A stretch of DNA of 15,679 nt from Nitrospinota bacterium (lineage in GTDB: Bacteria > UBA8248), in contig JAYGFR010000325.1 in assembly GCA_046581755.1 (NCBI GenBank), positions 1 through 15,679 of the forward strand, given 5' to 3'. Position numbers: made by a program. Positions 1 to 9,000 of the stretch are shown here, one piece after another (the first letter of the stretch is position 1; each line of letters starts with the position of its first letter).

Positions 1-3000
1 GGCTCTCTTGGCTTATAGGTCCTCTTCTGACAGTCTTCTTCATCGGTGGCTCCTTGGTATTAGGGTTGATGACATCCCCCGATCGTCTCATCGGGGCCAA
101 GGAGCCGCCACTCGAATTTCAATAGCCTTCGGGACTATGCCTGTATTTAGGCAGTTATCGTTTTTGTTTTTCGTCCGAATCGCACTTCTCGCCCTAAGCA
201 GGATCGTTGTGGCCCGGATATATTTTTCCCTCGCTTATTCCGACTATAGAAATGGGACTTTGATTTACAACGCGTGCAAATACAAGCGTGCGGCAGAATC
301 CATATTTTTCGACGAATCCATCTGGAACGAAGCGCGAAAAAAGGGGATGCGGCTTCCCGGGAATTGATCGATCGCTCCGTTGAGCGTTCGGATGTGACGG
401 TTTTTCTTGTCGGGAAAAAACATACGTAAACAAATAGTGTCAATACGCTCTTCAAAAGAGCGTTAAAAATAAAAAAGGAGTATTCGGAATTTACCTCCCG
501 AATCAGATGTCTCGGGGGAAGGGAGATTGGATAACGCGCAATAATTTTCCTATCTACGAGTGGGAAAGCAACAGTTTGCACGGATGGATTATCAAGGCTA
601 TTCAGAAGTCCTTGACGAAAGCTTCCTGAATTCGCAGGGCGCTCTGCGCTTGCTTCAGGAACGAATGAGCGTATTCGGAATTTACCGTAAAATATTCTCC
701 TCGCTTTCCCGGAAATGAACTGTCTGCGGGACCGTTCCCAAACGGCATTCGGCCCCTTGGCATTGACGGTGAAAGCCGCATCCTGCCTCAAGCGGGGCAA
801 TTCCTCCCCTCGCCGGTTGGCGAAACACCCGCACAGACCGCACACTGAGCTATATCCGCCCTTCCTGGCTGGCGCGCGCGGTTATTTCGAGGGATTTATA
901 TCGATTTCCCACCCGGTGACGAACCGGATCCGGTCGGCGATTTTTTTTCGCGCTCCGGGGGCTCTTTTGTAATAAGCAACGACTTGATAGCGCTCGGCCC
1001 CATTTTTTTCGATTTCGTAAAATACGTTTTTGATGGGAACCCTTTCCTTCAGGTCCCTGAAGTGCTCCTTCGTGTACGAATAAAAACGGAATTCATAAGG
1101 AGTTAAAATCAACTTGCCCCGTTGTTTATCCAATTCGCTGGATCGGAACACGAGTTCCGGGAGGCGGGCCCCGCGGAAGGGTGTCCCGGTTAACGAGACA
1201 TATTTACTGTAGATATAGTCCACATAATCGTGGGCGCCCGGCGGAACATCCGCATCCTTGCGAATCCGGCCCGGCCCGTAATTATATGCGGCAATTCCGC
1301 GGTAAACTTCACCGTCATATCTTTTGATAAGGCTTGCCAGGTATTTCCCTCCCAGCCGGATATTCAAGCAGGGTTCAAACAAGCGGTTTCGCGACCGGAC
1401 GCCCAGTTCCTTGGTGGTCAGAGGCCAACGAATCTGCATGACGCCAATGGCATTTTTGTTGGAGACCGCCCGGGGATTAAAGTTGGATTCTCCCTTTGCA
1501 ACGGCGATCAGCAAAGATACGGGTAAATTTGTTTCTTTCGCCGTCGATAGAAAACATTCGCGAAAGGGAAATCCGCCGTTGACCGGAATGGGATGGGCGA
1601 TCATGTTTTGAACGTCGCCTTGAAGGCTGGCATGGGTTGGCCCCGGGAAAAACCCCGCCAGAATAAATATCAAAAGTGAATAGAGCGGCGCCCTACGGCA
1701 AGGGCTCATGTTCGATTCTTCCCGTTCGGGTGATGACAAACTTCCCGGACAGATGGCGGTTCAAGGAATCGCTCAGGTTTTTTTGTATCGAGGGAGAGAG
1801 TTTTAGTTCGTACCGGTGGTCATCGCGAAGTATATTCCCCAAATATTGCATCGATGCCCGGCGAATCGCCTCCGGTATTCTTGAATTCGGCATCGTGTAC
1901 CGGGATCCCGATATGCGGTCCAGGCGGCGATAGGTCATATTTCCGTTCCGGTATTGCAATTGAAATCCGTAATCGCCGGTGAACAGGAAAATGCGCACCT
2001 TGCTGGATTCGACAAATTCGAGGAGCGTCTGTTGCGAAGCGAAGACGATATCGACCCTGGGCGGCCCTTTTCTCGATTTTTTCTCGGTCTTTTTCCTGAT
2101 CCTTTCGGGGGCTTGTGAAAAAATTCGGTTGGTTTCCAGCTTTTTTTGAATCGCTCTCAGGCGCTTTCTTCCGGCGACGTTGTTTCGTTCCAGGACTTTC
2201 ATTTTTGCTTTTAGCTGCTGGGCCTCGATCTTTTTTTGAGACAAGGCGGCCTGAAGCCGATTCGACTTGGTTTGTCTGTTCTTCAGGGTTTTTTCCATAT
2301 CCAGCAATTCTTGTATTTTTTTATTCTTTTGCCGCAAGGCTTCATTGAGGGATTCAATCACCCGCAGTTGGCTCCCGATCTCGGCGCCGATCCGAGCCAG
2401 CCTTCTTTTGAGAATTCTGTTTTCTTCGATAAGAACCGGAACCGCTTGGGTGGCCTCCCGGGGGAGGCTTTGGACGATGGGGATAAAAATGACCAAAAGA
2501 GAAAAGGCGATAATCGCCAGAAACCGCATGACGTCGGTCTGCAGCGCTTCATCGTCGCTGTTGCCGTCTACAGCATCGATATTGTCGTCATCGAATAAAG
2601 ACACCGCTCTTACTTTCCATTGAGGTTGTTGATTCCGTCCCTGATTTCATGGAGCACCGATAATATCTCTCTATCCCGGGTCTCCCGGTTCCATTTCCGC
2701 GCCTTTTCAATCAACCTGCCCAGGGTCAAATGGCGGAGCAATCTCATGATGTACCCCCCGACTCCGCCGACAATCGTCGTGGTCAGGGCCATAATGATTC
2801 CGCCCCGTACCATCCGGTTTAATATTCCCCATGCGCCGATATCCTTGGCGGTCTCCTGGGTCAAATTACCCAACGAAGCATTCAATCCGCTTTGCATGCC
2901 GATGGCCGTGTAAATAACTCCGATTCCGAGGAAAATATTGATCGACAAATCGTTCATGCGGTACCAATACGATGAGTTTTCCGCATCTTTTTTATCGAGA

Positions 3001-6000: not shown

Positions 6001-9000
6001 CCTTGGAAAACACAACCCCCGGAAAAAGAGCGATGGCCATCAGCCACACGAATTGTCTTTTACATGTTTTCCCCAAAGTCATTTAATTTCCCTTACCCGA
6101 ATCGTAAATCGCCTGGCTTTTGCATTGAGCGAATTGACCACGTACGTTTTCGTCTCGTTGGGTTCGAAAATTAACCGGTGCCAGGTCGTTATGTCGTTTA
6201 CGGAAAATCCCTGCTTGTCCTTAAAAACGGTTTGAACCTCCACCTGGAGCGGTTTCTCCGTCCGGTTCCGGAGCCGGGCTTGAACCTCCAATAGATTCGC
6301 ATCGGTCCACTTGGCCCGCTGCCCCTCGACGGTGACCAGATCTCTCAGATTTCGGGTAAGGAGCACAAAGGTTTCGTCGTTCTCCACATTGGCGCCCGGA
6401 ACGCTTACCGGCCGGTATGCGCCCTCGCAACCGAAATTGAAAAAACCAAGGAGAGCCAATACAAAGATTCGATTCCGAAATATTCGCATTATGGGTCGCA
6501 TCCTTAATAGTGAGGTTGCCTCGCGAAAATAGACGGCGTTTTATCTGTAGATGACATCGTCGAGACCTTGTTTTTTGATCTGATACAAATCTTCCCAGAC
6601 CTCGATCGACGATTCTGTATCGATCAACTTGAACGTATAGAGAATATAATCGGATACGCCCCTTCGACCCGCGGTGCTCAGGCCATCCATGCTGCCGGTG
6701 AGGAAATAATCCGCTCCGGCGACCGCTTTTCGGGTCTTGGATGCGTCAAAATCCGTCTTGCCCCGGCGTTTCAATTTTCTTTCCTGCTGAATGGCCAGAA
6801 TCTGCTCGCGGGCAAGGAAGTAAATTCGGCCGCGCGCTTTGCTGTTCAGCTTCGCTTTCATCAACTTGAGAAAAAGACTCTGGTTGATGGCAAACCGGGT
6901 ATTGTTTTTAACCGGAAGCAAGGCCACCGTGGGCGGATTCTTCGCACGCGCGATGACTGGAACGGTCAGCATGGAGCGGACCATTTTATCGGCGACGGCA
7001 TTAATGTCGTTCGACTCCACCCCAACCCCCGATATCGAACTCTGCCTGGTGGGGTCAACCCGGACCACCGGACGCCCGATTTCCACAGGGGGGGCGGCGG
7101 CGCATCCGGCGAGGGAAACGGCCAATACTCCGGTCAACAAGAATTTGCCTCGGAGTTTACATTTTCCTTGCATGATGAAATTCCTTTTGGCTGAAAATTG
7201 AATCGGAAAATGGGGACAGACATGCAGTTGATAAAAGATGAAATTCAAAGCTCACAGTCCGCATGCTGGAAATCGGCGCGGCAACGGACTTTCATCCTAT
7301 ATTTATCCTATTTAAAAAACAATCTAATTCATCGTCAATCTAAGTCATTGGGAAAAAGGCATTTAGATCGCACGGTTGGTGTTTCCACTGTCGATGGGTC
7401 TTCCGGAGGGGAGGGGCTCCCGTAAATAGCGGGGGTGAATATCGAGAACAGGTCTGCCCGAAATTTTGAGCATGCCTTTTTAAGAATAAATAAATATTTG
7501 ATCATTTTCCGGCGCCCGGGGCTGGCTGCGAAATGGAGCGAAATCGCCCGGTTTCGGGCTTGCCCGGGATCCGGCTCCCCGGGGCCGGGGTCTCCCATCA
7601 CGCCAAAAGGTGGCACGTTCGCGTGGCCTCGGCCTTCCCGCCGGCGCGCCACTGCCGCGCGGTGCTCGGCTACGGGTGACGCGGGGTTGCAAGCGTTGTT
7701 GAGCCCGGAGAGGGATCATTGCGCCCCGATAAGGAGAGAACCAATTATGCACCGTTATTTTGGCTGTAGGAGCCGTCTCAAAGGGATCTTTCAGTGCACT
7801 CGATGGACATCGGCGGGAGGCGGCGCCGAGGAAGGAAATTAGGCCGGATTTTGCTAAATGGAGAGCGTTGCAGCATAATTCCAGATAATTATAGTTATCC
7901 GACTACATCAAGAAGCTATGAGAATGGGCCATGAATGATACCGCAATCAAAGATTTGAAAATCCTCGTCGTGGAAGACGAAGAATTTATGCTCAACATGA
8001 TTGTCAGATTGTTGAAAAACTTCGATATACAGACCATTACAACCGCATTAAACGGGCAGGATGCACTTCAAGAAATGGAGGAGGCGAAAGAGAAATCCCA
8101 GCTGGAATTCGACCTTATTTTTTGTGATCTAGAGATGCCGATCATGGACGGGTTCCAGTTTTTGAAGAATCTCAGAGGCAGCGCAGACACAGGGAACCGA
8201 AATGTCCCGGTGATTATCTTGACGGGGCACGGCGATAAGGAACATTTCAGGGGAAGCGCTGGAGTTGGGGTTTCATGGATTCCTGGTCAAGCCGGTTACT
8301 CTGGAATCGCTCGAGAAAATTCTCCAAATTTGCTCGAATAAAAAATTATTTCTGTTTAAAGGATAAAGTCGGCCTATATTTTTCAAGTGCATCCGATCCG
8401 CCTCCGCTCATTTTCCCACTCCCTGGCCCCCAACCTGCTTCACATGCTCCGCCGGTTCCATGTCATGGGTGAGAGAGTGAGGCGCGCCGCTACCGGTCGG
8501 TTTTCGGCTACGGGTGATTCGGGGCCGCAAGCGGTGTTGAGTCCGGAGGAGAAAAGATCATTGCGCGCCGAAAAGGAGAAAACCGCTTATGCCCCGTGAT
8601 TTTGGCTATAGGAGCCGCCTCAAAGGGATCTTTCGGTCCACTTGATGGCAATCCCTGTGAGAGGCACTGCCCGAGGAAGGAGGATTGGGCCAGATTTTGC
8701 TAAATGGAGAGCGTTGCCGCATAAATCCGGAGTTTAATTTCTCAATTTTGGGTGCCATATGCTCCGCAAGCTCGTATCTTACCCGCTAGGTTTTCTCATC
8801 TGCGCCATCGCGGCACACGAAATCTTGAACCCGACGAATATTATCGGGATGCACGCCCAGCGCCTCTTGCGGCAGACCGAAGAGGATATCCGGGAGTATA
8901 AATCGGCCGAGGTGATCCAGCGGAACGTGGAGCGGATCAACCATATTTGCGACGATCTCCGGCGGTTTTCCCGGGACGAAAAACCTCAGTTTGCGCCTTT

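What a model noticed while it worked through the whole genome (the two positions that open the first line are those of the whole stretch)
882..7173. Unnamed MotAB/ExbBD-type ion-motor pair coupled to a lytic transglycosylase and LpoB
In an operon lpoB-ycfL-three unnamed exported proteins-g01644-g01643-SLT, g01644 (199 aa, no Pfam) has the Gly/Thr-rich helices of a MotA/ExbB subunit and g01643 has one membrane helix with a conserved Asp (LQTDVMRF) and a periplasmic coiled coil instead of an OmpA/ExbD domain. We read them as a new family of 5:2 ion-driven motors that powers local peptidoglycan remodelling through the transglycosylase. It would add a cell-wall-remodelling branch, common in marine-sediment bacteria, to MotAB, ExbBD, TolQR, AglRS and ZorAB.
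Evidence so far: No Pfam match for either at E 0.5 beyond coiled coil noise. 223 homologs at E<=1e-15, none named; invariant motifs FxGxGVIxTAIGM and GGxxxALxTTxVGGxGG. 554 metagenome hits; 68 of 80 kept loci carry the [LM]QTD[VI]M gene; in 19 of 19 loci >=7 kb the B-like gene follows directly, 14 of 19 also show the SLT, 5 of 19 the upstream 186-aa gene by blast. Model pLDDT 82; the five best Foldseek rows are ZorA, ZorA, ZorA, TolQ, ExbB (E 0.3-0.8). Paper search 233 and passages of PMC12505986 do not describe it.
(Added by a program. Inside this text positions count along the whole contig: contig position 1 is position 1 of the stretch shown here. "Call 12" and the like, gene names such as g00115 and contig names such as C1 are that model's own, and its searches are not shown. 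The text may have been shortened before it was handed on; [...] marks where a part breaks off. The agent that wrote the report below was given it as the finding of a first reader that could run no searches.)

Follow-up and report, generated by a model that had tools for sequence, protein, structure and literature searches.

The report
New ion-motor family with wall enzyme
Two unnamed membrane genes carry the key residues and predicted shape of a bacterial ion-driven motor and sit in a conserved set of envelope genes, usually with a cell-wall-cutting enzyme, so they likely form an undescribed machine that pulls on the cell envelope.

Summary

The conserved unit is F2-F1-A-B: a predicted exported protein and a lipoprotein precede A in 67/67 and 31/31 loci. 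Most loci add a second exported protein (F3), an anchored SPOR-like protein (F9) and the transglycosylase, which tracks A across 121 Woeseiaceae-family genomes (53 both, 65 neither, 3 discordant). B ends in a conserved domain with no solved-structure match.

It is not Zorya-like in tail or effectors and is independent of flagella. Best reading: a Tol/Ton-like envelope motor served by its own transglycosylase; its output is inferred.

The parts
2610..3209 (-). A: 199-aa ExbB/TolQ/ZorA-like motor subunit with an extra N-terminal membrane helix, a short (about 19 aa) predicted cytoplasmic loop and no long tail; T101 at 2907-2909, T145 at 2775-2777
1693..2604 (-). B: single membrane helix starting at Asp24 (2533-2535), periplasmic linker, conserved C-terminal alpha/beta domain (about 1693-2073) without a solved-structure match
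3317..3877 (-). F1: predicted lipoprotein (invariant lipobox-position Cys), obligate upstream partner of A; the ORF as listed starts at 3952
3931..4782 (-). F2: predicted exported helical protein with a conserved Cys pair, obligate upstream partner
882..1739 (-). Lytic transglycosylase: SLT domain with Glu84 (1488-1490) at the catalytic position, likely start ATG at 1709; diverged SPOR-like C-terminal domain
5009..6082 (-). u357: unnamed predicted exported protein of the lpoB module, not of the conserved cassette
6079..6501 (-). YcfL/DUF1425 lipoprotein, lpoB module, local neighbour only
6541..7173 (-). LpoB-family lipoprotein, local neighbour only

Best explanation
A and B are adjacent membrane genes that keep the two threonines and the aspartate of ExbBD/TolQR-type motors and likely assemble into an ion-driven A5B2 motor, which would pull, through B's periplasmic arm and the always-linked proteins F1 and F2, on the outer envelope at wall sites cut by the cassette's own transglycosylase. 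Steps: (1) A has the ExbB/TolQ fold and both Thr (shown by alignment and predicted structure). (2) B has one helix with a conserved Asp (shown). (3) Five A ring two B and conduct H+ or Na+ (inferred from the family). (4) B's variable tether and C-terminal domain engage lipoprotein F1 and exported F2, and F3 where present (inferred from gene linkage only). (5) The transglycosylase makes a passage or anchor in the wall, and the SPOR-like domains on it and on F9 mark the same wall site (inferred; AgmT of Myxococcus is the precedent). F9 (membrane helix, low-complexity linker of 46-206 aa, terminal domain) is built like TonB/TolA and may be the force transducer where present. In this reading the enzyme serves the motor, not the reverse. 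The window and L144 are reduced forms joined to an lpoB operon.
Confidence: 0.45

Rival explanations
1. Surface-motility or adhesion motor of the Agl-Glt or GldLM kind: the motor would move a periplasmic complex along the wall, the transglycosylase giving purchase as AgmT does.
For: AgmT couples proton-driven gliding motors to peptidoglycan (PMC11444678 abstract). B can have a long coiled-coil arm, recalling GldM's 18-nm shaft (PMC9389320 passages). Carried by 54 of 121 genomes of one family with one strong match each.
Against: No outer-membrane barrel or adhesin family among the conserved cassette genes. B's linker shrinks to 41-83 aa in several members. No relation to flagella: FliG in 32 of 54 carriers and 40 of 67 non-carriers. 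One search listed nothing that ties these hosts to such a system.
Confidence: 0.18
2. One reading: the motor directly drives the transglycosylase and works with LpoB-activated synthesis in local wall remodelling.
For: Enzyme tracks A closely. lpoB-ycfL-u357 precede the cassette in the window and L144. SPOR-like domains point to the wall.
Against: lpoB module in 0 of 80 genome loci and 1 of 80 metagenome loci; it occurs without A in a same-family genome. L144 keeps F2-F1-A-B without the enzyme in its locus.
Confidence: 0.15
3. Anti-phage or anti-predator envelope sensor in the manner of Zorya.
For: ZorA chains are among the best fold matches with the lowest rmsd (3.0-3.3 A). Patchy spread: 0 of 40 relatives of the window's genome, 5 of 151 in one order. 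Desulfobacterales loci adjoin caspase-domain genes.
Against: No long ZorA tail (longest of the 150 listed homologs 289 aa; ZorA tail about 70 nm, PMC11946911 passages). No nuclease or other cytoplasmic effector among the conserved families. 8 of 150 flanking proteins hit PADLOC at 1e-10: five caspase domains, a trypsin, an OmpA and an HTH. Flanks are mostly housekeeping genes and stable within lineages; the quick tree groups A by host lineage. No baseline of random genes was run.
Confidence: 0.12
4. Not a motor: a passive membrane scaffold or channel whose helices resemble ExbB by chance or have lost ion coupling.
For: Fold scores lie in the range common for helical bundles; B's helix alignment is not significant.
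Against: Fold, both Thr, the N-terminal amphipathic helix, the adjacent single-helix Asp gene and the gene order all agree with the motor plan; language-model neighbours with a family label are PF01618 clusters, at lead-level scores 0.81 and 0.78.
Confidence: 0.1

Closest known systems
ExbBD-TonB and TolQR-TolA
   Same: Predicted fold of A over nearly the whole ExbB/TolQ chain; two Thr; adjacent single-helix partner with Asp (D-V-M, as in most TolR/ExbD helices extracted); an anchored long-linker protein (F9) in most cassettes.
   Different: Below family thresholds; extra N-terminal helix; much shorter cytoplasmic loop; Trp/Tyr for Gly before the first Thr; B has a long tether and an unmatched C-terminal domain; F9's helix has GxxxG and no His (no SHLS); no TolB, Pal or TonB-dependent receptor among the conserved cassette genes; obligate F1/F2 partners; the window's genome also has canonical ExbB, TolQ and MotA genes.
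ZorAB (Zorya)
   Same: Compact three-helix membrane core aligns at 3.0-3.3 A; patchy distribution.
   Different: No long tail, no Pfam OmpA domain in B, no ZorC/D/E-type genes, no PADLOC match for cassette genes, not in defence-rich flanks.
AglRQS-Glt with AgmT (Myxococcus gliding)
   Same: TolQR-like motor plus a lytic transglycosylase plus periplasmic partners.
   Different: AgmT is an MltG homolog that does not assemble into the adhesion complexes; here an SLT-family enzyme with a SPOR-like tail is encoded in the cassette; no barrel or TPR proteins among the conserved genes.
MotAB flagellar stator
   Same: Four predicted membrane helices in A; Asp in B.
RlpA and DedD/DamX (SPOR proteins)
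   Same: Enzyme plus SPOR-like domain; membrane helix plus linker plus SPOR-like domain (F9).
   Different: SLT rather than DPBB catalytic domain; SPOR Gln not conserved; below the Pfam SPOR cut-off.

Membership tests
MotA/TolQ/ExbB 5:2 ion motors (superfamily) | A subunit with the three-helix membrane fold | tested here: met
   consistent ExbB/TolQ/ZorA ranking with near-full coverage; single scores are only middling
MotA/TolQ/ExbB 5:2 ion motors (superfamily) | Two conserved Thr in the pore helices | tested here: met
   T101 133/133, T145 132/133, aligned to the canonical Thr; role from PMC12905483
MotA/TolQ/ExbB 5:2 ion motors (superfamily) | Adjacent single-helix B subunit with conserved Asp | tested here: met
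   79 of 79 loci; homology of the helix itself is not significant
MotA/TolQ/ExbB 5:2 ion motors (superfamily) | 5:2 assembly | not testable with these tools
MotA/TolQ/ExbB 5:2 ion motors (superfamily) | Ion flux coupled to movement | not testable with these tools
   needs experiment
Pfam PF01618 MotA_ExbB | Score above the family cut-off | tested here: not met
   no hit at E<=1; the locus is not among the 6 matches in its own genome
ExbBD-TonB / TolQRA | Transducer with an SHLS helix | tested here: not met
   F9 helix has two conserved Gly and no conserved His; F9 not found in the window's genome
ExbBD-TonB / TolQRA | ExbD/TolR periplasmic fold in B | tested here: inconclusive
   no Pfam hit; fold searches gave no clear match
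MotAB | Large cytoplasmic torque domain in A | tested here: not met
   about 19 residues between the helices
MotAB | Co-occurrence with flagella | tested here: not met
   FliG in 32 of 54 carriers and 40 of 67 non-carriers
MotAB / ZorAB | OmpA-like wall-binding fold in B | tested here: inconclusive
   no Pfam OmpA hit; fold searches gave no clear match
Zorya | Long cytoplasmic ZorA tail | tested here: not met
   about 45 residues after the last helix; longest of 150 listed homologs 289 aa; longer forms were not searched separately
Zorya | Soluble effectors (ZorC/D/E) in the operon | tested here: not met
Agl-Glt gliding machinery | Glt outer-membrane and TPR components | not tested
   none among the conserved cassette families by Pfam, but no Glt profiles were searched
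SPOR domain | Sequence homology | tested here: inconclusive
   profile hits an RlpA SPOR at 22 bits; 2 of 37 F9 hit Pfam SPOR, best E 0.015; no hit to solved structures
SPOR domain | Conserved glycan-binding Gln | tested here: not met
   the Gln column aligns with Thr in the profile consensus; the Phe is kept (residues)
SLT lytic transglycosylases | SLT domain with catalytic Glu | tested here: met
   Pfam E 6e-26; Glu in 45 of 48 by motif

The most novel reading that the evidence does not exclude
A further, undescribed branch of the 5:2 ion motors: a seven-gene envelope machine (F2, F1, A, B, F3, F9, transglycosylase) in which a motor with a periplasmic domain of possibly new fold works on the wall at sites cut and marked by its own enzyme, doing a job no known motor does (envelope repair, or movement on sediment grains), in about 45% of sampled Woeseiaceae-family genomes and in several other lineages.
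Probability: 0.4. Interest if true: 0.85.

Novelty: new variant of a known kind. Interest (0 to 1): 0.68.

Why it matters
Few jobs are known for 5:2 ion motors: flagellar rotation, Ton import, Tol-Pal, gliding and secretion, and Zorya. This family is invisible to Pfam, NCBIfam and PADLOC, has its own fixed set of partners and a B domain with no solved relative, and is common in one family of environmental Gammaproteobacteria. It offers a compact test of how such motors pass force across peptidoglycan and why they are paired with transglycosylases. Its short cytoplasmic loop and extra helix bear on how these motors evolved.

Full report
Observation. Eight genes run on the minus strand from 7173 to 882. 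Pfam names LpoB, DUF1425 and SLT; the five genes between have no real match in Pfam, NCBIfam or PADLOC. A 226-base gap separates the lpoB-ycfL-u357 block from the rest. A (199 aa) has four hydrophobic helices; B (303 aa) has one, beginning at Asp24. A has 232 homologs at E<=1e-3. A profile over 1.84 billion representatives finds a closed family of 241 clusters; the longest of the 150 listed is 289 aa.

B. Without using the motif to choose, the most hydrophobic helix downstream of A is preceded by Asp in 79 of 79 genome loci with room (77 D[VIL]M, 2 DVW; the 80th locus ends too soon). B was found in 69 of 70 metagenome loci with room. The helix does not align to 26 canonical B helices better than shuffles, a result against. 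The linker is 41-223 aa. The C-terminal domain folds confidently (pLDDT 93) and has no clear match among solved structures or in the Atlas.

The conserved unit. Of 305 genome hits the best 80 were kept, and of 367 metagenome hits the best 80. F2 and F1 precede A in 67 of 67 and 31 of 31 loci with room. With at least 4.5 kb downstream, the transglycosylase is present in 47 of 55 and 17 of 18, F3 in 51 of 55 and 17 of 18, F9 in 37 of 55 and 11 of 18. Of the 8 genome loci without the enzyme, two are scaffold breaks, two have F9 and the enzyme elsewhere in the genome, three genomes gave no match to its C-terminal profile, and one was not checked. Across 121 genomes of a Woeseiaceae family sample, 53 have both A and the enzyme tail, 65 neither and 3 one only (one weak A hit counted as absent). 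In 151 genomes of a Desulfobacterales order, 5 have A; four match the tail profile and the fifth has the enzyme next to B. Kin and linkage make these counts non-independent. F1 has an invariant lipobox-position Cys, F2 a conserved Cys pair, and F3 carries DUF4384 in 14 of 52. F9 is a helix, a low-complexity linker and a domain homologous to the enzyme's tail. The tail profile hits a Pfam-confirmed RlpA SPOR domain but lacks its glycan-binding Gln.

LpoB. lpoB, ycfL and u357 appear in 0 of 80 genome loci and in 1 of 80 metagenome loci, L144 (76% identity in A), which has no transglycosylase after B. A same-family genome has lpoB-ycfL-u357 followed by a TPR-SLT-LysM enzyme and no match to A. A was not found in 40 relatives of the window's genome, and F3 and F9 were not found in that genome, which also holds six canonical PF01618 matches. 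The window is therefore best read as a reduced cassette joined to an lpoB operon.

Defence and motility. The cassette holds only predicted envelope proteins. A lacks the long tail that ZorA needs (PMC11946911 passages). 8 of 150 flanking proteins from 34 loci hit PADLOC, all with generic domains. No viral relative was found. A quick tree groups A largely by host lineage, with Desulfobacterales in two places. Presence is unrelated to FliG.

Mechanism. Shown: the sequences, linkage, conserved residues and predicted folds. Inferred: A5B2 assembly, ion flux, contacts with F1/F2/F3/F9, and the role of the enzyme. I favour a Tol/Ton-like motor that exerts force on outer-envelope partners through wall sites opened or marked by its own transglycosylase (0.45), because the obligate partners are F1 and F2, the enzyme is dispensable in some loci, and AgmT provides a precedent for an enzyme serving a motor (PMC11444678 abstract and outline). 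Rivals: surface motility 0.18, motor driving the enzyme with LpoB 0.15, defence 0.12, not a motor 0.10.

Literature. Nine searches listed no account of this family. I read passages of PMC9389320, PMC12505986 (it notes generic ion transporters of unknown function), PMC12905483, PMC6895207 and PMC11946911, and the abstract of PMC11444678. No supplement was read; that of PMC12505986 could list a member. That these hosts are sediment bacteria rests on recall and on record titles; one marine-sediment run covers 29 of 30 bins of the region at 90-99% identity.

Verdict. A real, well-conserved and apparently undescribed variant of the 5:2 motor class with its own partner set; the LpoB part of the claim should be dropped. 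Interest 0.68.

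Noticed in passing
window 10171-11944 and 11985-13739: Two tandem copies of a similar hydrolase gene (CocE/NonD-like, name recalled); the first is split across two frames (10171-11325, 10940-11944), the second is intact; L144 has a similar gene upstream of its lpoB.
   Followed up: no
window 7931-9829: Response-regulator and histidine-kinase-like ORFs (names recalled), the first two looking truncated.
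   Followed up: no
window 14014-14820: FdhD-like gene (name recalled from its sequence).
   Followed up: no
window 1-141 and about 7840-7890: Short stretches that many unrelated contigs share, with loose ends: probably repeated elements.
   Followed up: no
L014, L018, L026, L033, L047, L053, L072: In Desulfobacterales the cassette lies between a sigma-factor gene with a putative anti-sigma gene and a run of caspase-domain (some with DUF4384) and TPR-OmpA genes; L079 and L240 also have caspase-FGE and OmpA genes nearby.
   Followed up: partly
L092 549-5335: lpoB-ycfL-u357 followed by a TPR-SLT-LysM transglycosylase and a convergent TPR protein, with no motor genes: u357 is an unnamed member of the lpoB module.
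   Followed up: partly
L001, L012, L015, L036, L045, L046, L070, L074, L077: In many Gammaproteobacteria the cassette is followed by small proteins of one family (one has a glycine-zipper 2TM match) and a two-component system.
   Followed up: no
L030 9941-11542: A and B read as one 533-aa frame; other genes of this locus are also broken, so probably a sequencing error.
   Followed up: no
L034, L035, L043, L052, L054, L056, L066, L075: In Woeseiaceae-like loci the cassette sits at a fixed site next to feoB.
   Followed up: no
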